Positions 5,877 through 50,958 of a stretch of DNA of 64,000 nt are shown piece after piece (within the stretch, counting starts at the first letter, position 1; each line of letters starts with the position of its first letter). The DNA is from a virus (taxonomy: Duplodnaviria; Heunggongvirae; Uroviricota; Caudoviricetes): IMG/VR virus record IMGVR_UViG_3300014204_000107, positions 43,468 through 107,467 of that record. One strand, written 5' to 3'. A program made the position numbers and the translations under genes. The notes under the pieces were generated by a model, which did no database searches, was not told the DNA's origin, and worked only from the letters and a program-made list of their open reading frames with translations.

Positions 5877-6421
5877 AATGGGTTTTCATACGACCCATTC
5901 ACATCCCCGAAGCAAAGAACGGGTATGTTTTTCACCACATCAGCACTACTCATAGTAACTATTCTATTCCCATAACACCAATCTCCTGCTGGAAACTCAG
6001 TGACCATCCCAGTAAATCGTTGGGTAACCAATAGACTGTCATTGCTATTGATAATTCCATTTGCATCCACGTCCGCCGCTGCTATTTGTAATGGTGTTGT
6101 AAGAACGCTGGAGGTTCCTCCGACATACTGCTGTATCACTATTGCATCAGTACTATTAACTCCTCCCCACGAACAAGTAATATTAAAATTAATATTATAA
6201 TACCCATCCTTTACATTATTAAAAATATAATAACCGCTACTGTCTGTATTTGCCATTGATGATGTTTGGCTACCAGTTATTAATAATATCTGCTGGTTTG
6301 CATAAGAAGTACTTACTTCGTTTTCATAATATATTTGGCCAGAAATATTATGGGCTGAGTATGTTAGCCAATAGCTTCCGCTATGAATAGTTATACCGTT
6401 GTATGTGATGTAATATTCCAT
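5873..6421 (-). CDS. secreted/surface protein with dockerin-like Ca-binding repeats (DVDANGIINSNDSLLV; GDVNGSYENP)
   Basis: Dockerin/EF-hand-like DxDxNGxIN repeats; convergent with upstream gene, divergent from the fibre gene. Confidence 0.45.
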   Translation of the reverse strand: MEYYITYNGITIHSGSYWLTYSAHNISGQIYYENEVSTSYANQQILLITGSQTSSMANTDSSGYYIFNNVKDGYYNINFNITCSWGGVNSTDAIVIQQYVGGTSSVLTTPLQIAAADVDANGIINSNDSLLVTQRFTGMVTEFPAGDWCYGNRIVTMSSADVVKNIPVLCFGDVNGSYENPF

Positions 6422-13901: not shown

Positions 13902-14171
13902 ATGACAGCAGAAGACATTATTAAAAAAGTTGATGAAATCGAACAGACCGATTTTGTGACACCAACTTTCGGAAGACATTGGCCGGATCACGTAAAGAAA
14001 CATAATGACATTGATGCGATAATTCATATCGCCCACAAACAAGGCAGAAGAGCCATATTACTCGAAAGAGCAATTGGTGATTTGGTTGCTGAGATCGAAC
14101 GGTTGAATCATAGAATAAAAGGACTTGAAGGAAGTATTGCCGGAATTTATAATAACACAAGATCATTATGA
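13902..14171 (+). CDS. small hypothetical protein
   Basis: ORF. Confidence 0.35.
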   Translation: MTAEDIIKKVDEIEQTDFVTPTFGRHWPDHVKKHNDIDAIIHIAHKQGRRAILLERAIGDLVAEIERLNHRIKGLEGSIAGIYNNTRSL

Positions 14172-14392
14172 CGGCAGAAGAATATTATAGAGCAATAATG
14201 CTTGAAGATATTAAAAATCTCAAGAAAAGAAGCAAGCTCACACATAGGCAAGTCATTCATATTATGCTGTTGTACAATGATATGAAGAAAAATGAATATC
14301 TCGAAGAAATAAATGCATTGAAAGCTGAAATTGAGAATTTAAAGTTAAATATAGATAATGAATATGCAGTAATTACTACCAATATATTATAA
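14168..14392 (+). CDS. small coiled-coil protein
   Basis: ORF. Confidence 0.35.
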   Translation: MTAEEYYRAIMLEDIKNLKKRSKLTHRQVIHIMLLYNDMKKNEYLEEINALKAEIENLKLNIDNEYAVITTNIL

Positions 14393-14680
14393 ATGACAGA
14401 ATACGAAATAATTAGAAAGAATATACCTAACGGAATAGTGAATATAAAGGCTATTGGAAAAGGAAATGGAAAACCACAAAAGCAAGCAGAGGATGATATA
14501 ATAGCTAAATGTATGAGGGATTTTGCTAACCAGGAAACTGATGAATTAGTTAAAAAAATTGAAGCATTACAGCGATTTAAATATAATTTATCTGAAGAGG
14601 TTGCTACTTTAAGGCAACGATTAATGGATGCAGGACTTGAAAAACCAGCAATAATAACAGATTTCAGTCATACTGCATAG
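14393..14680 (+). CDS. small hypothetical protein
   Basis: ORF. Confidence 0.35.
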   Translation: MTEYEIIRKNIPNGIVNIKAIGKGNGKPQKQAEDDIIAKCMRDFANQETDELVKKIEALQRFKYNLSEEVATLRQRLMDAGLEKPAIITDFSHTA

Positions 14681-14739
14681 TAAAAAATGAAAATATAGTT
14701 GATTAGTTTAACCGCCCATCCGGGCAAAAAACACAAAAC

Positions 14740-15198
14740 ATGAAAACATTACAAATAAACGAACAGGATGCAAGACGATTGTATCCTACTTCTTCTCCTG
14801 AAATGAAGGAAATATTTGAACAGACATTCGGTAAAGACTTTTTAATTGAAAAAATTATTGATCGGATTAAAACATTCGAGGATGCCTGTGATGCATTGAA
14901 CTATGATCCGAAACTTTTCATTTTTACCACAGACGAACCGGACGTAGTTGCCTATAAAAAGCTTAAAGTCATTGTAAAAGCCCTCAACGAGGGATGGACC
15001 CCGGACTGGAATGATGGAGATCAGAAGAAATGGTGGCCATACTTCCTAATGTCTTCCAGGTTCGGCTTTTCGCGTTCGGCTTACGGCTGTACGTATTCGT
15101 ACTCGGGTGTCGGCTCTCGCCTATGCTTCCGCACAGAAGAACTTTCAAACTATGCTGCTCTGCAATTCAGTGAAGTCTACAAGGACTTCTTAACATAA
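14740..15198 (+). CDS. hypothetical protein (GC-rich island)
   Basis: ORF; composition shift. Confidence 0.4.
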   Translation: MKTLQINEQDARRLYPTSSPEMKEIFEQTFGKDFLIEKIIDRIKTFEDACDALNYDPKLFIFTTDEPDVVAYKKLKVIVKALNEGWTPDWNDGDQKKWWPYFLMSSRFGFSRSAYGCTYSYSGVGSRLCFRTEELSNYAALQFSEVYKDFLT

Positions 15199-15211
15199 AA
15201 AAACAAACGAT

Positions 15212-15685
15212 ATGAATGATTTTGATGATAAACTAACCAACATTTTACAAGAATTATTTCTTGAACATTTGTATGTGCAAAATGCAGCAAATCTAATCAA
15301 GGATTTAATTCCCGAAACCGCCGCCCTGCAAGCGCAGGTAGAGGAACTGACGAAAGAACGGGACGGATTAAAACTCAAATTACAATGTCCAGCGGCTGAT
15401 TTGGAAAACGCCAGAGAACAGAATCAAAGGATGAGAATATGGTTTGCAGACAGAACCGGACTTGAAAGCACAATGCTATCCGACCACATGAAGGTTATTG
15501 ACGAAATGTTGAATGACAATACCGCACCCGAACCCTCTCTCCTGGAGATTGCAAAAGATATTTTTATAAAACTATATGAGGTTTTGCAGGATGAAAAGGT
15601 TGAGGTCGGAAGCACAATGAAAATTTCAATTAAATATGCCAAAGACTTCATTCAGTACGTCCGGGACGCAGAAAAACAATCTTAA
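15212..15685 (+). CDS. hypothetical coiled-coil protein (GC-rich island)
   Basis: ORF. Confidence 0.4.
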   Translation: MNDFDDKLTNILQELFLEHLYVQNAANLIKDLIPETAALQAQVEELTKERDGLKLKLQCPAADLENAREQNQRMRIWFADRTGLESTMLSDHMKVIDEMLNDNTAPEPSLLEIAKDIFIKLYEVLQDEKVEVGSTMKISIKYAKDFIQYVRDAEKQS

Positions 15686-15697
15686 AAACATAGAACC

Positions 15698-16201
15698 ATG
15701 AAAACATACACCAAAGAAGAATTAGATGAAATTTTAAAAAACCATTCTCTGTGGTTGGTTGATAGTACCACAGGAGAAAGAGCCAACCTCAGTTCTGCCA
15801 ACCTCCGTTCTGCCGACCTCAGTTATGCCGACCTCCGTTCTGCCAACCTCCGTTCTGCCGACCTCAGTTATGCCGACCTCCGTTCTGCCAACCTCCGTTA
15901 TGCCGACCTCAGTTATGCCAACCTCAGTTATGCCAACCTCCGTTCTGCCAACCTCAGTTATGCCGACCTCGACTTTTCGTGTTGGTCGCTGTCGTGTGAT
16001 TCCCTAAACGTAAATGTTGATGAAAAGCTGTTCTATCAATTGCTTTTTCATACCCTTTCGCTCAAAGGACTTTCCCAAAGCGAAGACTTCCGCAAGGTTT
16101 ACAAGACTTGTAAGGACATTGCCAACAAGTTTCATCGTACAGAAATAGCAAGATTGGAAGATTTGCCCGACCAGGCAGAAGCCGAAAGGGGGCAGAAATG
16201 A
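15698..16201 (+). CDS. pentapeptide-repeat protein (A[DN]L[SR]xA[DN]L tandem repeats) with C-terminal non-repeat domain
   Basis: About 19 consecutive pentapeptide repeats; N-terminus EL.EILKNHSLWL shared with 38275. Confidence 0.65.
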   Translation: MKTYTKEELDEILKNHSLWLVDSTTGERANLSSANLRSADLSYADLRSANLRSADLSYADLRSANLRYADLSYANLSYANLRSANLSYADLDFSCWSLSCDSLNVNVDEKLFYQLLFHTLSLKGLSQSEDFRKVYKTCKDIANKFHRTEIARLEDLPDQAEAERGQK

Positions 16202-16413
16202 ACGATTCGGATAAGAAATACTATGAGAACAGGGAGAGGGAAAGACAATCTCATATGCGTGCAATATCAAAGGCAAAGAACAGGGGCGAGGCATCTGTTA
16301 AGTGGCACGAAACAAATAAATTAACACCGGAAACATTAAGCGATTTCAAAAAAGCAATGAAACAGGCAGACAAAGAATGGGAACAGGCAATCAAAGAAGG
16401 GAGGCAGAAATGA
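16198..16413 (+). CDS. small basic hypothetical protein
   Basis: ORF. Confidence 0.35.
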   Translation: MNDSDKKYYENRERERQSHMRAISKAKNRGEASVKWHETNKLTPETLSDFKKAMKQADKEWEQAIKEGRQK

Positions 16414-16871
16414 AAGCCAAACAAATATTAGATGAGGTTGCTATAAGTCACGGGTGGGCGAATTGGTCCAGCCTGATTAAAATGGAGAGTATGCCTAATA
16501 TTCTTAATAGTACAATACAGGCAATGACATTATTTTCCACCCAGCAGAACGCCGAACTGGTGGACAAAAATCAAGACCTTAATATGGAACTATCCGGAGC
16601 GTATGCGGCAATGGATGCGAACAATAAAATCACGGAATCTTTACGGGCCGAGGTCGAAAGGCTGAATCGTTTCAACCAAGTTCAACAGGACGAACTTGTA
16701 CAAAGAATTGCGTTTTATAAAGCCGAACTCGAACGGCTGAAGGCGGAAAGGAAAAAAGAACTTATTGATGCAGTAATCAGTCAACAGACCTCGGATATGC
16801 GTACGGCAATAAAATATGCAAATAAATGGTATGAACATACCTACCCCGAAGGAAAGGAGAAAAAAGGATGA
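16410..16871 (+). CDS. coiled-coil protein (EVERLNRFNQVQ...ELERLKAERKKEL)
   Basis: ORF; paralogous segment in 17074-17325. Confidence 0.4.
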   Translation: MKAKQILDEVAISHGWANWSSLIKMESMPNILNSTIQAMTLFSTQQNAELVDKNQDLNMELSGAYAAMDANNKITESLRAEVERLNRFNQVQQDELVQRIAFYKAELERLKAERKKELIDAVISQQTSDMRTAIKYANKWYEHTYPEGKEKKG

Positions 16872-17077
16872 AAATGAAATCAAAAACAGTACATGTTGCA
16901 GTTCTTGATAAAACAAAGTGTAAAGGGTCGGACGGTTGCGGAAATACAACAGAGAACGAAGTTGCTACTGAAATATTAGGCTGGTATAATGGCATTGGTG
17001 GTGGATTACATCACAAAATGATAGAAGCCAAAATTACGGTAACTGTTGAATTTCTTGAAGGAAAGGAGGATAAATGA
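16868..17077 (+). CDS. small hypothetical protein
   Basis: ORF. Confidence 0.3.
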   Translation: MKMKSKTVHVAVLDKTKCKGSDGCGNTTENEVATEILGWYNGIGGGLHHKMIEAKITVTVEFLEGKEDK

Positions 17078-17325
17078 CAAAACTTGATTGTCTATATATC
17101 GAAGTGGATAGGTCTGTTGCTGGCGGTGCAAACGAAAAAGTAATGGCGGCAATTGATGAATTCACCACCGAGGTCGAAAGGCTGAACCGCTTCAATGAAG
17201 TACAGAAACGTGAACTCATTGAAAGGATTAGTAATTACAAGTCCGAGGTCGAAAGGCTGAAGGCGGAAATGAAAGAACAACTTAAAAAGGCTTATGATGT
17301 TGGTTATGAAAGGGAGTTGATTTAA
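17074..17325 (+). CDS. small coiled-coil protein, paralogue of 16410-16871 C-terminus
   Basis: Shared EVERLNRFNEVQ...EVERLKAEMKEQL. Confidence 0.35.
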   Translation: MTKLDCLYIEVDRSVAGGANEKVMAAIDEFTTEVERLNRFNEVQKRELIERISNYKSEVERLKAEMKEQLKKAYDVGYERELI

Positions 17326-17398
17326 GTTCTTTAAAGACGTTTGAAAATTCAGATGAATTTAAGGCTCGAAAAATTGAAATATTAAATTCTAAAAAATA

Positions 17399-17776
17399 TT
17401 GGTAATGGAAAAAGAACATATTTGCAGAAGTTGCAGACAGGATACTAATATAGAATGCCCGTATTATAAAAAAGATTATGCTTGCTGGGAAGACACCCCG
17501 CTTAAAACTAAGTTTATTATGCTAAATTTAGCAGCAATACACAAATTAATGGCAGATAATGGGTTTAATTATTTTACGGGTGGTAGCAATTATAATAGCA
17601 TTCATGTAGATTTCTCTACTAACCACAATGGTAGAGGAATAGCAATAGAAGTAACAGACTATGGTAATGGATTTATTTGGGCTAGATGGGGATTTGATTT
17701 GCCAATGATAAATAGTAAAGCAATATATGCGGAAGAAGAATTATTAAAAATCATTAATAGCGCTAAATCTTTATGA
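17399..17776 (+). CDS. hypothetical protein with N-terminal Cys4 cluster
   Basis: ORF. Confidence 0.4.
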   Translation: MVMEKEHICRSCRQDTNIECPYYKKDYACWEDTPLKTKFIMLNLAAIHKLMADNGFNYFTGGSNYNSIHVDFSTNHNGRGIAIEVTDYGNGFIWARWGFDLPMINSKAIYAEEELLKIINSAKSL

Positions 17777-18180
17777 CACAAGAAAAAGAAGAATATTTAG
17801 TTAGCAAATATCCTAAAATATTTAGAGATATCAATGAAGATATGACTGTTACCGCAATGTGCTGGGGCGTGGAGTGCAGAGATGGCTGGCTCTGGATATT
17901 AGATCAACTATGCGATTGCATACAAGGATATATAGATGCTAACCCGCATCTTGAAATACCGCAAGTAATAGCAACTCAAGTCAAAGAAAAATATGGTGAT
18001 TTGCGTTTCTATTATAATGGTGGTGATAGTACAATACATGGTATGGTTTGGCTTGCTGAACATATGTCGTGGAATACTTGTGAAGACTGCGGCAGTACTG
18101 AAGATATAGAACATACTGAGGGTTGGGTGCATACTTGGTGTAAGAAATGCGCTAATAAAGCTAAAAATAAAACAGAATAA
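17773..18180 (+). CDS. hypothetical protein with Cys-rich C-terminus
   Basis: ORF. Confidence 0.4.
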   Translation: MTQEKEEYLVSKYPKIFRDINEDMTVTAMCWGVECRDGWLWILDQLCDCIQGYIDANPHLEIPQVIATQVKEKYGDLRFYYNGGDSTIHGMVWLAEHMSWNTCEDCGSTEDIEHTEGWVHTWCKKCANKAKNKTE

Positions 18181-28212: not shown

Positions 28213-29550
28213 ATGATAACAATTAAATTACCATATAATACAACTGATAAGTTTTATACAAAATTATTAGAATTGCGTAAGCAACAATCATCTGTGGTTA
28301 GGTTTAGCTTTAATAGATACCATGACGGAGTTAAACAAAAAGAAATTCGTAATAGATGCAAAAAATTAAATAATTTTGATAAATTAAATTCGTGGCTATT
28401 ACAATGTGGCATCATGGAAGGTGCACAATTATATACGAGATTTAAACATAAACCAAATATCATATTTGGTAGTAAATTTAATTTCAATCAGCGCATTAAA
28501 AATAAAATTACAAAAGAAGAATATCAATTAACTCGGTTATTACCGTTAAATGTTCAAGGAGCCACGTCATGTGGTAATAGAAATTTTGAATTAAATATTA
28601 TTGATGAAAATTTTATTTTATTTAAACCAAATAGGAAAGAACATTATATTTTACATTTACCTAAACTACGCAGCAACATTAAAAAACAATTATTTAAACT
28701 TCAAGAATTAGTAGAATTAAAACAATTGTCATACTCAATTAAATTGTCTGATAAATATGTTGCAATTTCATTTAATTTACCAAATGATAATACAATTAAA
28801 AATAATAAAACTTGTTATATTGGTATAGATTTAAATCCAGATAATATTGGGATTAGCATTTGTAATTATGAAAATGATAATCATAAAATAATCTGTACTA
28901 AAATGTTTGATATATCCCAAATATTTAATAAATTTGTTGCATTAAATGAACCATCTTATTCAATTAAATCAAAATATTATCAAAATAAATTGCAATTTGA
29001 AACTATTGAAATATCAAAACAAATAATTAAATTAGCAAAACAATATAAAGTAAGCAATATATTTATTGAAAAATTAGATTTTAATGCTAAAGTTGCAAAT
29101 ACATTTAATAATATTGGTAATAGAAAATGCAAAAACATATGGAAAAGAGAATTATTTATAGAACAATTAAGTAAGAGATGCAAGATCAATAGTATTGCAA
29201 TAAACAAAATACGCCCGGCATATACGAGTTTTATAGGAAATATACAATATAATTATGCTGATTCAATCAATGCAAGCATTGAAATTGGTAGAAGAGGATA
29301 TGAATTAAAAATAAATAACAATACTGATAGATTTTATCCAGCTATTGTAGCAAAACACCAATGGAAGGAAATGGCTGCTACTGCAAGTACTTGGAAGAGT
29401 TTATTTAGTAAAATAAAAAACTTGAAATTGAAATATCGAGTTCAGCTTGAAGATGCACTTTCAGTGCATAAACATGCTGTTTTTAGTTTAAATCATGCAA
29501 TAAAAAGCAAAGTCAAAGTTTATAATTTTGATAATGTATTGATGATTTAG
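28213..29550 (+). CDS. TnpB-like (IS200/IS605 OrfB / Cas12-like) RuvC nuclease lacking the canonical CxxC…CxxC zinc finger
   Basis: RuvC-I CYIGIDLNPDNIGIS, RuvC-II NIFIEKLDFN, TSF plus RuvC-III ADSINASIEIGRRG; extreme AT/Asn-Lys richness unlike neighbours. Confidence 0.55.
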   Translation: MITIKLPYNTTDKFYTKLLELRKQQSSVVRFSFNRYHDGVKQKEIRNRCKKLNNFDKLNSWLLQCGIMEGAQLYTRFKHKPNIIFGSKFNFNQRIKNKITKEEYQLTRLLPLNVQGATSCGNRNFELNIIDENFILFKPNRKEHYILHLPKLRSNIKKQLFKLQELVELKQLSYSIKLSDKYVAISFNLPNDNTIKNNKTCYIGIDLNPDNIGISICNYENDNHKIICTKMFDISQIFNKFVALNEPSYSIKSKYYQNKLQFETIEISKQIIKLAKQYKVSNIFIEKLDFNAKVANTFNNIGNRKCKNIWKRELFIEQLSKRCKINSIAINKIRPAYTSFIGNIQYNYADSINASIEIGRRGYELKINNNTDRFYPAIVAKHQWKEMAATASTWKSLFSKIKNLKLKYRVQLEDALSVHKHAVFSLNHAIKSKVKVYNFDNVLMI

Positions 29551-33034: not shown

Positions 33035-33107
33035 GCATAGGTAGATTTAATTGGTAAAATCCCTTCATTTTAGGAGGAAGATGGTGGTTCGATTCCACCT
33101 CTATGCA
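33035..33107 (+). tRNA. tRNA-Lys (anticodon UUU), no encoded CCA
   Basis: 7-bp acceptor (GCATAGG/TCTATGC), D-arm GATT/AATC with GG loop, anticodon loop AUUUUAG (U33, A37), T-arm GGTGG-TTCGATT-CCACC; N26 register ambiguous. Confidence 0.55.
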
Positions 33108-33136
33108 CAAACAATAAACAATTTAAAAACTGCACG

Positions 33137-38274: not shown

Positions 38275-39180
38275 ATGACAACAACAGAATTAAAAACTAT
38301 TTTATCTAATCATAAATTATGGTTAAATGGTAAAAAAAATGGAGTTTGTGCCGATTTAGGAGGTGTTGATTTAAGCGGTGCTAATTTAAGCAATGCTAAT
38401 TTAAGATATGCTAATTTACGCGGTGCTAATTTAAGCTATGCTAATTTAAGATGTGCTAATTTAAGCGGTGCTAATTTAAGCGGTGCTAATTTAAGCAATG
38501 CTAATTTACGCGGTGCTAATTTAAGCAATGCTAATTTAAGCAATGCTAATTTACGCGGTGCTGATTTAAGCGGTGCTGATTTAAGCGATGCTGATTTAAG
38601 CAATGCTGATTTAAGCAATGCTGATTTAAGCAATGCTGATTTAAGCAATGCTGATTTAAGCAATGCTGATTTAAGCAATGCTGATTTAAGCAATGCTAAT
38701 TTAAGCGGTGCTAATTTAAGCGGTGCTAATTTAGGCGGTGCTGATTTAAGCGGTGCTAATTTACGCGGTGCTAATTTACGCGGTGCTAATTTAAGATATA
38801 CTAATTTAAGCGGTGCTAATTTAAGCAATGCTAATTTACAAAATATTTTAATTAATGAATTATCAGCGTTCATACCATTATCGTGCCCCGAGGAAGGAAG
38901 TTTTATTGCATTTAAAACCGCGCAGAATCATATTATTAAATTATTAATACCAGAAGACGCAAAACGGAGTTCGGCAACATCATATAAATGTAGAGCATCA
39001 AAGGCAAAAGTACTTGAAATTAGTGATGAACTATCAAGCATACAATCTGATTATGATAACAACTTTGTCTATGCTGTTGGTGAAACAATTGAAGTAGATA
39101 ATTTTGATGAGTGTAGATGGAATGAATGCTCAACTGGAATACACTTTTTTATGTCTAAAGAACTTGCAAGGCAATATTAA
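38275..39180 (+). CDS. pentapeptide-repeat protein (about 35 A[ND]L[SR]xA repeats) with C-terminal globular domain
   Basis: Tandem pentapeptide repeats; N-terminal [13 protein letters not shown] shared with 15698. Confidence 0.65.
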
Positions 39181-48330: not shown

Positions 48331-50958
48331 ATGAACAATCCTATCACAAAGAAAGGTACCTTTAAGTACGCAATTTCTGACTTTTGGTTATCCGAAAGCA
48401 CAAAGCGTATTTTAGAAGACTATGAACCGAAGGAGCATGCCTTTTATGTACGGGGTATGATTAAGAAAGCGGTGGAAGACTTTATTCGTATTATCAATAA
48501 CGGTGATGGCTCCGTGAAGGTTACATATAGGACTGATGGCAGTGAAACGTCATACAGTTCGGCCAACGCTATTGAATGTAAGAGTGTATGCGTCCAGTCT
48601 GATATATTTGACTTAGATGTTACCGTAGGTCTTGCTTTACATGAGGCAATGCACATCCGTGATACTATCTTTGTCACTATCAACCCATTGTTCCAATCCT
48701 TTCTTTTAAAGCATGATTGTAGTGATTTAATTATTGCTCATTTAGTTGATGCATATATCGACTTCCTGCATGATGAAATGATGTATGACTATGCTTATAT
48801 TGCAAGGAAGCTGACTGGGCAGTCAATGTCATATTTTGACATTACCAATGCAGTTACTGCCGCAATTACCAAGCACACTAATAAAGTTACTTTAAATAGC
48901 ATGTTCCAGAGTAGTGGTTATGTAAGAATGCGTAACTGTTACGAAAGAATAAACAAGCTTTCCAATGGCAAAGAGCTGTTGCCAAAGATTCTTAAAATAA
49001 CTGGCGGCATACTTAATTGGATCGAGGATCGTAGGATTGACCATAAAGCTAGTGTTATTGCTCCCGGCTATGTTGGCTATTATGATGCATTATACGATAA
49101 GTATTTCTTTGCACCAAACATGCGTGATATTGTAAAAAATAACATTACAAACGTGCCAACCCTTAAGCATTACGAATTATACATCACAAACTTATGGGAA
49201 TCGCAGAAATATGTTAACGAAGTCCCAGCATTAGGTGATATTGTTAAAGCCATTGATCTTCCGAATATTGGCAGGCTTGAAGACACTATTGATTCATTAG
49301 CTCTCACCTTCGAAGTAATGGCAATCATTCTCGAAGAAATGCTTTCACGTAAGAAGAAAGAAGAACAGGAGCCTGCAGAAAAAGAAACGAAGAAAGATAA
49401 GCTTGGAGAAAGCAAAGATGGCAAACGTGAAGAGAACGACAGTAATGACAATACTGAAATCGATAACGAAAATAGCGAAGACGGCCCTTCTAAAGAAGAT
49501 GATGACGAAAGCGAACCAAGCAATAAAGACAACAAATTCGATACAGAGATTGAAGAAGCTGGCGATGACAATGTTACTGCTGACGAGTTTGACGAAAACA
49601 ACGAAGACGCCCCAGAAGATAACTACGAAGACGCCCCAGAAGATAACTACGAAGATAACTACGAAGGTAACGACGAAAGTCCCGACCATACAGAAAACGA
49701 TGGTAGTGAGGTAGAACATACTGATGATGATACTTCTGGCACTGAAACTGCTGAAGACGATATTACTGATGCAGTAGTTCCCGACAATGATACTGAAAAT
49801 AGCAATACTACTGAAGGAGACAACGGCGATGAATCAAATAGTGCCGGTTCCAATGGTGGTAATGATTTAGACAGTTTTCCTGCTGAAGACAACAATATCA
49901 TTGATGACGAAGCAGACAAAATGCTTGGAGAGCAAAAGAAATTTGCTGAAGGTGATATCGAGCGTTCTGACGTTAATGAAATGGAGGAGAAGATTATTAA
50001 TGCTACCGCTACTGGCGATGTGGATTTGAGAGTATCAAAGGATGGTGCCAACCGCAATGTTAGTTATGTTTGCAATAACTTTAACAAGCAGAACGTAGAG
50101 ATGCTCAGTAATATGTGCGAATGTGTTAGTATGTGGACAACAGAAGACTCACGCGAGCAGCAAAATATCCTGAAAGCGCTGAAATATGGTGAAAAACTTG
50201 CACAGTTGATTACTATTCGCAACGAAGACAGGGAACTGGTTAATCCTAACCAGGAAAGCGGTAAAGTATTCAAAAGGCACCTTTACAAAATTGCTGGACA
50301 TAATAGTAAGGTTTTCTATAGCGTTCTCAGTGAAAACTTTGAACCCGTAACTATGCACATTTCAATTGACGCAAGTGGTTCAATGGCCTCTGGGTCAAGC
50401 TTTAGCAATGCTATTTTTATGGCCGTTGCTTTAGCAGTAGTTGCTGACAAGACTAAGAATGTTGAAGTTGTTATTTCATTCCGCGGTGAATCTTCTGGTA
50501 AATACAGAAGCGCATTTACTTCGGGTGCTGAATACAGCACTAAAGGAAAGATTCCTTTTATGTTGATTGCATATGATAGCCGCGTTGATAAACTTTCTAA
50601 AATCAAGCAAGTATTTAGGTATATCCATGCTAACAGTTACACTCCTGAAGGACTTTGTTTTGCCGCCATTTTGGAAGAACTCATTGAATACAGCAAAGAT
50701 TCAAGGTCTTACTTTATCAACATTAGTGATGGTATGCCGTGTTTCTACGAATATGCTGGGCAGAAGGCGTTAGAACATACAAGGAAACAAGTCGATAAAA
50801 TGCGCAAGGCAGGCATCAATATTATGGCATTTTTTATTGGCAATGAATATGGGCTTTCTAATTTTAAATATATGTATGGTAAGGATGCTACCAATATAGA
50901 CGTTACAAATTTGAGAAGACTTGCTAATAACATTAACCAATTATTATTGAAAAAATAG
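48331..50958 (+). CDS. CobT-like protein: N-terminal domain, long acidic low-complexity linker (EDAPEDNYEDAPEDNYEDNYE), C-terminal vWA with MIDAS (ISIDASGSM)
   Basis: Architecture typical of cobaltochelatase CobT-like vWA partners of MoxR/CobS AAA+ ATPases. Confidence 0.5.
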   Translation: MNNPITKKGTFKYAISDFWLSESTKRILEDYEPKEHAFYVRGMIKKAVEDFIRIINNGDGSVKVTYRTDGSETSYSSANAIECKSVCVQSDIFDLDVTVGLALHEAMHIRDTIFVTINPLFQSFLLKHDCSDLIIAHLVDAYIDFLHDEMMYDYAYIARKLTGQSMSYFDITNAVTAAITKHTNKVTLNSMFQSSGYVRMRNCYERINKLSNGKELLPKILKITGGILNWIEDRRIDHKASVIAPGYVGYYDALYDKYFFAPNMRDIVKNNITNVPTLKHYELYITNLWESQKYVNEVPALGDIVKAIDLPNIGRLEDTIDSLALTFEVMAIILEEMLSRKKKEEQEPAEKETKKDKLGESKDGKREENDSNDNTEIDNENSEDGPSKEDDDESEPSNKDNKFDTEIEEAGDDNVTADEFDENNEDAPEDNYEDAPEDNYEDNYEGNDESPDHTENDGSEVEHTDDDTSGTETAEDDITDAVVPDNDTENSNTTEGDNGDESNSAGSNGGNDLDSFPAEDNNIIDDEADKMLGEQKKFAEGDIERSDVNEMEEKIINATATGDVDLRVSKDGANRNVSYVCNNFNKQNVEMLSNMCECVSMWTTEDSREQQNILKALKYGEKLAQLITIRNEDRELVNPNQESGKVFKRHLYKIAGHNSKVFYSVLSENFEPVTMHISIDASGSMASGSSFSNAIFMAVALAVVADKTKNVEVVISFRGESSGKYRSAFTSGAEYSTKGKIPFMLIAYDSRVDKLSKIKQVFRYIHANSYTPEGLCFAAILEELIEYSKDSRSYFINISDGMPCFYEYAGQKALEHTRKQVDKMRKAGINIMAFFIGNEYGLSNFKYMYGKDATNIDVTNLRRLANNINQLLLKK

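What the first reader, a model, noticed from the sequence alone, without database searches (positions are those of the whole stretch)
15698..16201. Two pentapeptide-repeat proteins sharing an N-terminal leader but with opposite codon usage; one sits in a GC-rich island (14.7-17.3 kb)
15698-16201 and 38275-39180 both begin M(K/T)T.T(K/E)EEL..IL.NH.LWL and then run into A(D/N)L(S/R)xA(N/D)L repeats. The first uses GC-rich codons (GCCAACCTCCGTTCTGCCGACCTC); the second uses AT-rich codons (GCTAATTTAAGCGGTGCTAAT). The whole 14.7-17.3 kb block is visibly GC-richer than the rest, so it is probably a recent lateral acquisition. Pentapeptide-repeat proteins form DNA-mimicking beta-helices (Qnr, MfpA). 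In a phage they are plausible anti-restriction or topoisomerase-modulating factors.
Basis: partly seen in the sequence, partly recalled or inferred. Interest (0 to 1): 0.55.

Follow-up and report, generated by a model that had tools for sequence, protein, structure and literature searches.

The report
Imported phage pentapeptide-repeat gene with unstable repeats
A large phage carries two unrelated copies of a common but uncharacterised phage repeat protein; one arrived in a small block of foreign, GC-richer DNA, and the repeat tracts of both are nearly the only places where two otherwise identical genome assemblies differ.

Summary
ORFs 15698-16201 (PRP1, 167 aa) and 38275-39180 (PRP2, 301 aa) are pentapeptide-repeat proteins with a similar N-terminal helix and opposite codon choice. 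Seven genes at 14740-17325 form the window's highest-GC3 block (0.42, against 0.24 for the rest of 1-42 kb).

The interpretation needs three corrections.

1. The shared leader is a generic N-terminal cap. It occurs on phage repeat proteins with at least five different C-terminal domains, and 72 of 102 unrelated proteins match PRP1's leader better than PRP2 does. The two C-termini are unrelated (an unnamed helical domain against DUF5758).

2. Each repeat tract is a DNA tandem repeat of one 15-nt unit, so the opposite codon usage is two founder units, not dozens of independent choices. Repeat GC3 tracks genome GC across the family. This places PRP1's origin in a genome of about 45% GC and makes PRP2 native.

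3. Foreign origin is supported. "Recent" is not shown, and no donor was found.

Across 41 kb compared with a second assembly of the same ~299-kb phage, the only differences are one SNP and three in-frame repeat-number changes, two of them in these genes.

Function is unknown. Neither protein meets the Qnr or MfpA models. This is an ordinary phage mosaic with a modest new twist.

The parts
14740..17325 (+). GC-rich seven-gene block (the island); composite, probably of foreign origin
   Evidence: GC 0.416 and GC3 0.422, against 0.331 and 0.244 in the rest of 1-42 kb, with GC2 unchanged. Highest-GC3 seven-gene block of the window. Edges fall in the intergenic gaps 14681-14739 and 17326-17398. No flanking repeats.
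14740..15198 (+). 152-aa gene of a large phage and prophage family (phrog_11581)
   Evidence: PHROG match E 2.4e-30. 2687 homologues, the best non-self ones 50-58% identical, including Agriterribacter and Porphyromonadaceae genome records. The two homologue loci examined lie among phage-type genes such as RecT and have GC 0.39-0.44 and gene GC3 0.40-0.50. Homologues at 26-28% identity in Bacteroides phages.
15212..15685 (+). 157-aa gene, nearly an orphan, directly upstream of PRP1
   Evidence: Only two versions among 5.8 billion proteins: its own and an 81-85% identical one on L092.
15698..16201 (+). PRP1, a 167-aa pentapeptide-repeat protein: N-terminal cap helix, four-sided beta-helix, C-terminal helical domain
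   Evidence: Pfam PF00805 E 3.4e-20. AlphaFold2 model with mean pLDDT 84.8: helix 6-22, beta-helix 29 to about 105, helices 109-121 and 129-142. Foldseek finds only generic pentapeptide-repeat proteins. Belongs to a family of 136-281 aa proteins with the same three parts.
15782..15976 (+). PRP1 repeat tract: 13 units of the 15-nt unit GCC-RAC-CTC-MGT-TMT; copy number differs between assemblies
   Evidence: TRF: period 15, 12.6 copies; period 45 at 93% matches. Unit table. A clean 45-nt in-frame difference with no mismatches against ENA contig k141_2421633.
15977..16201 (+). PRP1 C-terminal domain (residues 94-167), a divergent member of an uncurated domain family
   Evidence: No Pfam match. 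In the family alignment D92, S94, C100, Q114 and H118 are invariant. PRP1 lacks the near-invariant P97, W99, G101 and C150. One homologue among GenBank phages, in Blautia phage Montmirail.
16198..16413 (+). 71-aa gene overlapping the PRP1 stop codon by ATGA; absent, like PRP1, from relative L092
   Evidence: ORF list. ATGA overlap. L092 lacks 15698-16413. No family match.
16377..16871 (+). 164-aa coiled-coil gene (more likely starts at 16410, overlapping the preceding stop)
   Evidence: ORF list. GGAGG plus ATGA at 16410. 33% identical homologue directly follows the 157-aa gene in L092.
16868..17077 (+). 69-aa gene; the one island gene with low GC3 (0.26)
   Evidence: AAGGAG ribosome-binding site and ATGA overlap.
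17074..17325 (+). 83-aa gene, a partial paralogue of the 164-aa gene
   Evidence: 54% identity over 56 aa. 117-nt DNA repeat 16648-16764 / 17168-17284 at 74%.
38275..39180 (+). PRP2, a 301-aa pentapeptide-repeat protein with a C-terminal DUF5758 domain; composition matches the genome
38369..38838 (+). PRP2 repeat tract, 31 copies of a 15-nt unit; copy number differs between assemblies
   Evidence: TRF: period 15, 31.3 copies, 89% matches. The ENA assembly has 276 aa, lacking five of seven identical NADLS units.
25801..25869 (+). 30-nt tandem repeat inside the 83-aa gene 25667-25918; the third and last length difference between the assemblies
   Evidence: TRF: 2.3 copies, 100% matches. 30-nt indel at 25818-25847. 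The unit encodes IKDVVEEIAP.

Best explanation
PRP1 and PRP2 are two independent members of a large, modular family of phage pentapeptide-repeat proteins.

Architecture. Each has three parts: a conserved N-terminal cap helix (ELxxILxxHxxWL...GERAxL), a four-sided beta-helix of variable length, and an interchangeable C-terminal domain. In PRP1 that domain is a helical module with no curated family. In PRP2 it is DUF5758.

Repeat tracts. In both genes the beta-helix is encoded by a DNA tandem repeat derived from a single 15-nt unit. The tract gains and loses whole units in frame, by replication slippage or unequal recombination (inferred). This keeps it to one codon per residue and makes it the fastest-changing site in the genome.

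Codon contrast. The contrast reflects two founder units. PRP1's unit (GCC-RAC-CTC...) was shaped in a genome of about 45% GC. PRP2's unit (GCT-AAT-TTA...) was shaped in an AT-rich genome like the present one.

Origin of the island. PRP1 lies in a 2.6-kb, seven-gene block (14740-17325) that entered this AT-rich, ~299-kb phage from the GC-richer phage and prophage gene pool, by ordinary recombination at gene boundaries. The phage probably infects Bacteroidota (inferred). The block is itself a mosaic: a relative has the two upstream genes but not PRP1 or the 71-aa gene.

Function (inferred, low confidence). PRP1 is a small cytoplasmic accessory protein, probably made early in infection. Its rigid beta-helix and C-terminal module bind a host or phage protein or a nucleic-acid enzyme. 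Repeat number sets the length of the helix and the rotational position of the C-terminal domain.
For: Shown:
- Domain make-up and predicted folds.
- The leader occurs with at least five C-terminal types, and 72 of 102 unrelated proteins have a leader closer to PRP1's than PRP2's is.
- Both tracts are period-15 DNA repeats using a single codon per residue.
- The same holds family-wide. Of the 20 scorable PRP1-type genes on IMG/VR contigs, 16 use a single Ala codon and 13 a single Leu codon.
- Repeat GC3 tracks genome GC (Spearman 0.80, p 2e-5). Regression predicts 0.447 +/- 0.039 for PRP1 and 0.336 for PRP2, against a window GC of 0.346.
- Island GC3 is 0.42 against 0.24, with GC2 unchanged, p 1.3e-4.
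- Three of seven island genes have a ribosome-binding site of 5 nt or more, against 6 of 97 elsewhere (p 0.013). Four consecutive gene junctions overlap by ATGA.
- The first island gene's family includes Bacteroidota genome records; the two homologue loci examined lie among phage-type genes and match the island in GC.
- L092 is 94% identical over 14840-15558. Its homology ends at the PRP1 start codon, and PRP1 and the 71-aa gene are missing.
- Against ENA contig k141_2421633, over 41 kb, the only differences are one SNP and three in-frame tandem-repeat indels of 45, 75 and 30 nt. These 150 nt account for most of the 166-nt difference in length between the 299,351-nt and 299,185-nt contigs.

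For an early or accessory role: family members on phage contigs lie next to HNH endonucleases, DNA methyltransferases and replication genes, and just downstream of the excisionase/transcriptional-regulator gene in Blautia phage Montmirail.
Against: - No donor was found. The best non-self relatives are about 55% identical for PRP1 and 50-58% for the 152-aa gene.
- The island has no integrase, transposase or flanking repeats.
- The two assemblies that span the island are identical across it apart from the repeat number, so the transfer cannot be dated.
- 42-64 kb of the window is also GC-richer (GC3 0.35), so patchy composition is normal here, and an origin within the same genome cannot be excluded.
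- L092 is only 1186 nt long, so PRP1's absence there could be a loss rather than a gain here.
- The repeat-number differences rest on short-read assemblies. Logan contigs break inside both tracts, and repeats are a known cause of fragmented assemblies (PMC9238414). The PRP2 difference lies in a 110-nt run of identical units and is the least secure.
- Function has no direct evidence: no conserved gene neighbourhood, no PADLOC match and no literature on this family or on DUF5758.
Confidence: 0.68

Rival explanations
1. PRP1 and PRP2 are specifically related paralogues, marked by a shared leader. PRP1 was acquired recently by lateral transfer. Both act as DNA-mimicking beta-helices that block restriction enzymes or modulate topoisomerases.
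For: - Leader and repeats align at 59% identity.
- The island's composition is foreign.
- Gyrase-binding repeat proteins are acidic DNA mimics (PMC10886550).
Against: - The leader is generic, and the two C-termini are unrelated.
- Against the NCBIfam models, PRP1 scores 20.3 (Qnr cut-off 240) and 26 (MfpA cut-off 360). PRP2 scores 64.6 and 63.4 against the same cut-offs.
- PRP1's helix is about four coils, roughly half the length of MfpA's, and carries net charge only -2. The family's median net charge is -1, ranging from -15 to +10.
- PRP2 ends in a DUF5758 domain rather than the dimerising helix.
- "Recent" is not demonstrated.
Confidence: 0.15
2. The island is native. Its higher GC3 reflects local selection or mutation bias, for example a differently timed or translated transcription unit, rather than import.
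For: - The genome is patchy in composition; 42-64 kb has GC3 0.35.
- No mobility signature at the edges.
- The island is present in both assemblies that span it.
Against: - GC3 steps from 0.19 to 0.43 and from 0.42 to 0.25 across single intergenic gaps.
- Different use of ribosome-binding sites.
- The first gene belongs to a GC-matched prophage family.
- PRP1's repeat GC3 lies 2.6 residual standard deviations above the value expected for a 35% GC genome.
- A mosaic relative exists in a GC 0.43 context.
Confidence: 0.15
3. The repeat-number differences between assemblies are assembly artefacts (collapsed or expanded tandem repeats), not real variation.
For: - Logan contigs end inside both tracts.
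- Pentapeptide-repeat genes are 26-fold under-represented in short-read viral assemblies because repeats break assemblies (PMC9238414).
- The PRP2 difference lies in a run of seven identical units.
Against: - The longest exact repeat in PRP1's tract is 63 nt at an offset of 45, spanning 108 nt. That is shorter than the k=141 implied by the ENA contig's name, so that assembler should have resolved it (the k value is inferred from the name).
- The 13-unit form is on record on two JGI contigs: the 2336-nt L001 and a 299,351-nt one.
- All three differences are clean, in frame and whole-unit.
Confidence: 0.3

Closest known systems
Pentapeptide-repeat proteins in general (Pfam PF00805; structures Np275/Np276, Rfr23, alr5209)
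   Same: A(D/N)LXX repeats forming a right-handed four-sided beta-helix with an N-terminal cap helix. Foldseek matches at E 2e-5 to 1.4e-4. Pfam score well above the cut-off.
   Different: The repeats are far more regular and are homogeneous at the DNA level. The proteins are phage-borne, with a conserved leader and an interchangeable C-terminal domain.
Topoisomerase-protecting repeat proteins: Qnr, MfpA, AlbG/McbG, EfsQnr
   Different: Neither reaches the NCBIfam Qnr or MfpA cut-offs. PRP1's helix is about half as long. Neither model shows a Qnr-type loop. PRP2 carries DUF5758 in place of the C-terminal dimerisation helix. No gyrase link is evident in the gene neighbourhood.
PHROG 7713 and DUF5758-bearing repeat proteins of phages
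   Same: Both window proteins match phrog_7713 over the leader and first repeats (E 2.7e-30 and 5.5e-53). PRP2 matches DUF5758 at 118.8 bits against a cut-off of 26.9.
   Different: Both families have no known function. PRP1's C-terminal domain is in neither, and no paper in the searched library mentions DUF5758.
Blautia phage Montmirail 'pentapeptide repeat family protein' (WAK79216.1)
   Same: The only GenBank phage with a PRP1-type C-terminal domain (41% identity to the family consensus, E 5e-9). It lies among small genes just downstream of the excisionase/transcriptional-regulator gene.
   Different: Only 97 aa with few repeats. Temperate 46-kb phage of a Firmicutes host.
Variable-number tandem repeats and contingency loci in bacterial genes
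   Same: In-frame gain and loss of whole repeat units is almost the only difference between otherwise identical genomes.
   Different: Here the repeats are in phage genes encoding a beta-helix. No phenotype or selective advantage has been shown.

Membership tests
Pentapeptide-repeat family (Pfam PF00805) | Score above the Pfam gathering cut-off of 20.2 bits | tested here: met
   PRP1 71.7 bits, PRP2 242.2 bits.
Pentapeptide-repeat family (Pfam PF00805) | Right-handed four-sided beta-helix fold | tested here: met
   AlphaFold2 models with mean pLDDT 84.8 and 88.7, showing one short strand every five residues. Best structural matches are solved pentapeptide-repeat proteins. These are predictions, not solved structures.
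Qnr family (NCBIfam NF033086) | Score above the curated cut-off of 240 bits | tested here: not met
   PRP1 20.3 bits, PRP2 64.6 bits.
MfpA (NCBIfam NF000349) | Score above the curated cut-off of 360 bits | tested here: not met
   PRP1 26 bits, PRP2 63.4 bits.
Topoisomerase-protecting repeat proteins (Qnr, MfpA, AlbG) | Beta-helix of about 8-9 coils per monomer | tested here: not met
   For PRP1: residues 29 to about 105, roughly 15 units or four coils. PRP2 does meet this feature, with 33-34 units and 182 residues superposed on AlbG.
Topoisomerase-protecting repeat proteins (Qnr, MfpA, AlbG) | Dimer formed through a C-terminal helix; strongly negative DNA-like surface (PMC10886550) | tested here: inconclusive
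   PRP1 has C-terminal helices, but no oligomer was modelled. Net charge is -4 overall and -2 on the helix. PRP2 ends in a beta-rich DUF5758 domain and has net charge -8.
Topoisomerase-protecting repeat proteins (Qnr, MfpA, AlbG) | Binds gyrase or topoisomerase IV and protects against poisons | not testable with these tools
   Needs biochemistry or genetics.
DUF5758 (Pfam PF19062) | Score above the gathering cut-off of 26.9 bits | tested here: met
   PRP2 residues 202-296, 118.8 bits. PRP1 has no match.
PRP1-type C-terminal domain family (uncurated; motif DLDFSxFPLWCG...QLxYH...ANxFHRVxECG) | Invariant D92, S94, C100, Q114 and H118, plus near-invariant P97, W99, G101, F145, H146, R147 and C150 | tested here: inconclusive
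   PRP1 keeps all five invariant residues and F145-H146-R147, but lacks P97, W99, G101 and C150. It is a divergent member.
Horizontally acquired genomic island | Deviation at synonymous sites with sharp edges | tested here: met
   GC3 0.42 against 0.24 with GC2 unchanged; the steps fall in single intergenic gaps.
Horizontally acquired genomic island | Mobility genes or flanking direct repeats | tested here: not met
   No flanking repeats and no integrase or transposase match.
Horizontally acquired genomic island | Present in some relatives and absent from others | tested here: inconclusive
   PRP1 and the 71-aa gene are absent from the 1186-nt relative L092. For the whole block, no sufficiently diverged relative was found.
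Horizontally acquired genomic island | Identifiable donor lineage | tested here: not met
   Best non-self identities are about 55% for PRP1 and 58% for the 152-aa gene.

The most novel reading that the evidence does not exclude
The repeat tracts of phage pentapeptide-repeat genes may act as contingency loci. Family-wide, each tract uses one codon per residue and is kept homogeneous at the DNA level. This lets the beta-helix change length one unit at a time (about a quarter-turn and 1.2 A per unit), so a phage population always holds variants that differ in helix length and in the position of the C-terminal effector domain. Such variation could retune binding to a fast-evolving host target or help evade a host sensor. 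Here, two such tracts and one other repeat account for all length variation between two otherwise identical ~299-kb genomes.
Probability: 0.2. Interest if true: 0.6.

Novelty: new member of a known kind. Interest (0 to 1): 0.35.

Why it matters
Pentapeptide-repeat genes are very common in phage genomes. More than 566 IMG/VR loci matched this one query, yet no phage member has a demonstrated function. Three points from this case are useful to others:

- The shared N-terminal leader is a generic cap on a modular architecture. It should not be read as evidence that two genes are paralogues.
- Codon usage inside such tracts reflects a single amplified unit. It must not be counted as many independent observations, although its GC3 still records the GC content of the genome where the tract formed.
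- The tracts are the most changeable sites in an otherwise clonal jumbo-phage genome. That matters for strain typing, for assembly quality, and possibly for how these proteins adapt.

Taken on its own, the island is ordinary phage mosaicism.

Tried and rejected
Searches that found nothing useful:
- Megablast of 14000-18000 against 50,697 phage records: no match.
- More diverged relatives of the phage, sought through flanking genes in IMG/VR: none for the ADP-ribosylglycohydrolase or the 269-aa gene. Only 39-42% identical DUF932 hits in unrelated contigs.
- Both scans of the JGI metagenome contig collection (157-aa protein; an exact 24-mer): no confirmed relative. That collection evidently lacks these samples.
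- Conserved gene neighbourhood of the 21 PRP1-type genes found on IMG/VR contigs: no recurrent partner. Only scattered HNH endonuclease, methyltransferase and replication genes.
- L029 as a possible donor (similar ADLSY unit, and a homologue of the 152-aa gene three genes away): rejected, only 35% identity over 69 aa.
- PADLOC: no match for any island protein other than a marginal hit (E 0.0057) for the 83-aa gene.
- NCBIfam: generic sub-threshold repeat hits only, apart from PRP2 passing the Alr5209 model (147.5 bits against 125) through three summed repeat stretches.
- Literature: phage pentapeptide-repeat proteins appear only as annotations, and no paper mentions DUF5758.

Ideas considered and rejected:
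- The island's GC is an artefact of the Ala-rich repeat. Rejected, because the non-repeat genes share the high GC3.
- The tract is a non-coding DNA repeat. Rejected, because of family-wide protein conservation on both sides of it, strictly whole-unit in-frame indels and a confident predicted fold.
- Promoter and terminator scans at the island edges were uninformative, with counts near those of shuffled sequence.

The fold searches were dominated by the beta-helix, so the folds of the two C-terminal domains were not assessed separately.
Full report
**1. Context**

The window has 34.6% GC and is packed with small genes, almost all on the + strand. The same sequence occurs in several public assemblies:

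- ENA contig ERZ27247350 k141_2421633, 299,185 nt, about 99.6% identical by BLAST over the two 20-kb stretches compared; nearly all the difference is repeat-tract indels.
- A JGI contig of 299,351 nt, not retrieved here.
- Short contigs from JGI 3300035208, SRR6484787 and SRR18595299.

Recognisable genes include:

- a TROVE/Ro-like protein, an ADP-ribosylglycohydrolase, DUF932 and DUF3310 proteins;
- a GIY-YIG nuclease, a radical-SAM protein, AAA ATPases;
- a PRPP-synthetase-like protein next to a nicotinamide phosphoribosyltransferase.

The 875-aa protein's only relatives among GenBank phages are in Microcystis phage Mel-JY01 and a 484-kb uncultured phage, at 28-29% identity. I infer a jumbo phage of about 299 kb.

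Two things point to a Bacteroidota host, by inference only. Ribosome-binding sites are rare (6 of 97 genes outside the island have a match of 5 nt or more). The best-populated island gene family includes Bacteroides phages and Bacteroidota genome records.

**2. Checking the observation**

Both ORFs exist and both are pentapeptide-repeat proteins. They align at 59% identity over the leader and the first 12 repeats. The quoted DNA strings are present.

| | PRP1 repeats | PRP2 repeats |
|---|---|---|
| Ala | GCC 13/13 | GCT 30/31 |
| Leu | CTC 13/13 | TTA 34/34 |
| Asn | AAC 7/7 | AAT 34/34 |
| Asp | GAC 7/7 | GAT 13/13 |
| GC3 | 0.62 | 0.17 |

(All.)

The seven genes at 14740-17325 compare with the rest of the window as follows:

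| Gene set | GC | GC2 | GC3 |
|---|---|---|---|
| Island, 7 genes | 0.416 | 0.337 | 0.422 |
| Rest of 1-42 kb, 68 genes | 0.331 | 0.326 | 0.244 |
| 42-64 kb, 29 genes | 0.384 | 0.337 | 0.352 |

- Island against the rest of 1-42 kb: p = 1.3e-4. Island against 42-64 kb: p = 0.015.
- The island is the highest-GC3 seven-gene block in the window.
- The shift is not a by-product of the repeat. PRP1's non-repeat part has GC3 0.43, and five of the six other island genes have GC3 0.40-0.44.

The one caveat is that the genome is patchy in composition.

**3. The leader is generic**

PRP1 retrieved 3,916 proteins. I examined the best 120.

- 78 of them match a strict leader pattern, (E/Q/K/D)-(L/I/V/M)-x-x-(I/V/L/M)-(I/L/V/M)-x-x-H-x-x-W-(L/I/V); 102 contain the looser core H-x-x-(W/F/Y)-(L/I/V/M).
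- The leader is joined to several different C-terminal domains: the PRP1 type, DUF5758, a Listeria prophage gp51 type, an IGCxxH...EW...FDD type, a GDTPE type, and others.
- In local alignment of the leader alone, 72 of 102 of these proteins score higher against PRP1 than PRP2 does. The two best are DUF5758-type proteins.
- Both window proteins match phrog_7713 over the leader and first repeats.

The leader is therefore a family-wide N-terminal cap. The AlphaFold2 models show it as helix 6-22 in PRP1 and helix 3-17 in PRP2, at the start of the beta-helix. PRP1 and PRP2 are related only through the cap and the repeats. Their C-termini are unrelated.

**4. What PRP1 is**

About 56 of the top 120 hits share PRP1's full architecture. 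Their consensus C-terminal domain reads DLDFSAFPLWCGGL.V.IDDKQA.QLLYHL.RNV..SKNTSK..K..C..KSL.K.ANKFHRV.ECG.I.

- PRP1 keeps the invariant D92, S94, C100, Q114 and H118, and the near-invariant F145-H146-R147.
- It lacks the near-invariant P97, W99, G101 and C150, so it is a divergent member.
- The domain has no Pfam, NCBIfam or PHROG model.

The model (mean pLDDT 84.8) shows the N-terminal cap helix, a beta-helix from residue 29 to about 105 (roughly four coils), and helices at 109-121 and 129-142. Foldseek against the PDB returns only generic pentapeptide-repeat proteins, including MfpA at TM about 0.5.

More than 566 IMG/VR loci contain related repeat proteins. I identified 21 PRP1-type genes among the 80 loci kept, on contigs mostly of about 10-65 kb with locus GC 0.29-0.52.

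- Their neighbours are HNH endonucleases, DNA methyltransferases, helicase loaders, primases and further repeat proteins. No partner recurs.
- The single homologue in GenBank phages, in Blautia phage Montmirail, lies among small genes just downstream of the excisionase/transcriptional-regulator gene.

**5. The repeat tracts are DNA tandem repeats**

Tandem Repeats Finder reports these arrays:

| Tract | Coordinates | Period | Copies | Matches |
|---|---|---|---|---|
| PRP1 | 15782-15970 | 15 | 12.6 | 87% |
| PRP1 | 15782-15970 | 45 | 4.2 | 93% |
| PRP2 | 38369-38838 | 15 | 31.3 | 89% |

PRP1's unit is GCC-RAC-CTC-MGT-TMT, with three variable positions.

- If codons were drawn independently, thirteen GCC in a row would be vastly improbable (0.23^13, using the island's own GCC frequency). 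The codons are copies, not choices.
- The property is family-wide. Of the 20 scorable PRP1-type genes on IMG/VR contigs, 16 use one Ala codon throughout and 13 use one Leu codon.
- Which codons are used depends on the genome. Repeat GC3 correlates with locus GC (Spearman 0.80, p 2e-5).
- A linear fit predicts a home genome of GC 0.447 +/- 0.039 for PRP1's tract and 0.336 for PRP2's. The window is 0.346.

The opposite codon usage therefore reduces to two founder units. It still carries a real historical signal: PRP1's tract was formed in a GC-richer genome, and PRP2's in one like the present genome.

**6. The tracts are where the genome varies**

I compared window 5698-26231 and 27521-48003 with the ENA contig. 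Over 41 kb the differences are:

- one SNP, at 6174;
- a 45-nt indel in PRP1 (three units, no mismatches once placed correctly, giving 152 aa against 167 aa);
- a 75-nt indel in PRP2 (five of seven identical NADLS units, giving 276 aa against 301 aa);
- a 30-nt indel in a perfect 30-nt repeat inside the 83-aa gene 25667-25918.

Together these make 150 nt, close to the 166-nt length difference between the two near-complete contigs.

Caveats:

- These are short-read assemblies.
- Logan contigs end inside both tracts.
- Repeats are known to break assemblies (PMC9238414).

PRP1's longest exact internal repeat spans 108 nt. That is shorter than the k=141 implied by the ENA contig's name, so I consider that difference probably real. 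The PRP2 difference is less secure.

**7. Origin of the island**

For import:

- The GC3 step occurs across single intergenic gaps.
- Codons that are rare elsewhere are enriched (CTG, CTC, GCC, GCG, TCG, CGG).
- The right half has four consecutive ATGA-overlapping junctions, three of them with a ribosome-binding site of 5-7 nt (3 of 7 against 6 of 97, p 0.013).
- The 152-aa gene belongs to a family of 2,687 proteins. Named members include Agriterribacter and Porphyromonadaceae genome records. The two homologue loci examined lie among phage-type genes, have GC 0.39-0.44 and gene GC3 0.40-0.50, and are 54-57% identical to the island gene.
- Contig L092 (JGI 3300037067, GC 0.43) carries the 152-aa and 157-aa genes at 94% nucleotide identity, with perfect blocks of 170 and 312 nt. 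Its homology runs to the PRP1 start codon and then stops. The next gene there is a 33% identical homologue of the 164-aa coiled-coil gene. PRP1 and the overlapping 71-aa gene are absent.

The block is thus itself a mosaic assembled by recombination at gene boundaries.

Against "recent":

- The two assemblies that span the island are identical across it apart from the repeat number.
- No donor was found.
- There is no mobility machinery.

**8. Function**

No direct evidence exists.

- PRP1 fails the Qnr and MfpA models (20 bits against 240; 26 against 360). It is about half their length, and its helix carries net charge only -2. The family's median net charge is -1.

My best guess is that these are early or accessory proteins. 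The rigid helix would present a C-terminal module to a host or phage partner, with repeat number setting its length and rotational position. I put this at about 0.25. A DNA-mimic role is more plausible for PRP2 than for PRP1.

**9. Verdict**

The leader and codon arguments were over-read, and the functional proposal remains speculation. The new elements are modest:

- an uncurated C-terminal domain family;
- family-wide single-codon repeat tracts whose GC3 records the genome of origin;
- repeat-number change as nearly the only variation between two otherwise identical jumbo-phage assemblies.

Noticed in passing
window 28213-29550 (+): A 445-aa gene with the lowest GC in the window (0.239, GC3 0.15), sitting between GC-richer neighbours. 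It is an AT-rich counterpart to the GC-rich island. It has no Pfam or PHROG match in my scans; the precomputed annotation gives a weak SSO2105_N hit.
   Followed up: partly
window 26670-28118 (+): A TROVE (Ro60-like) protein gene. Cellular Ro proteins pair with Y RNAs, but Rfam at gathering thresholds found no Y RNA anywhere in the window.
   Followed up: partly
window 33035-33108 (+): The only tRNA-like gene in the window. Rfam scores it as tRNA at 42.6 bits, but ARAGORN cannot assign an anticodon (reported as 'tRNA-???', anticodon 'tt').
   Followed up: no
window about 42300: Gene GC3 steps from about 0.24 (1-42 kb) to about 0.35 (42-64 kb), p = 4e-11. This large-scale boundary in composition is unrelated to the island.
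   Followed up: partly
window 25801-25869, inside gene 25667-25918: A perfect 30-nt tandem repeat encoding IKDVVEEIAP. Its copy number differs between the two assemblies. It is the only length difference found outside the repeat-protein genes.
   Followed up: yes
window 16648-16764 and 17168-17284: A 117-nt duplication within the island (74% at DNA level, 54% at protein level) links the coiled-coil regions of the 164-aa and 83-aa genes. The 3' ends of PRP1 and the 71-aa gene also share a similar junction (...GGCAGAAATGAA).
   Followed up: partly
L090 6001-8721 and L091 6001-8600: In two Bacteroidota prophages, the homologue of the island's 152-aa gene lies three genes upstream of a reverse transcriptase (RVT_1), with two 124-144-aa genes between. 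This layout is reminiscent of a diversity-generating retroelement. The window has no reverse transcriptase nearby.
   Followed up: no
window 57163-60687 (+): A PRPP-synthetase-like gene and a nicotinamide phosphoribosyltransferase, about 1 kb apart with two small genes between. This is an NAD-salvage pair of the kind carried by large phages. The NAMPT gene is GC-rich (0.427).
   Followed up: no
whole window: Ribosome-binding sites are rare (6 of 97 genes outside the island have a match of 5 nt or more) and the regions upstream of start codons are A-rich. This fits a Bacteroidota-type host but was not tested further.
   Followed up: partly
window 49597-49677, inside the 875-aa gene: An in-frame tandem repeat of period 12 or 24 nt (2.5-5 copies), encoding an acidic N-Y-E-D-rich stretch. 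It lies outside the stretches compared with the second assembly.
   Followed up: no
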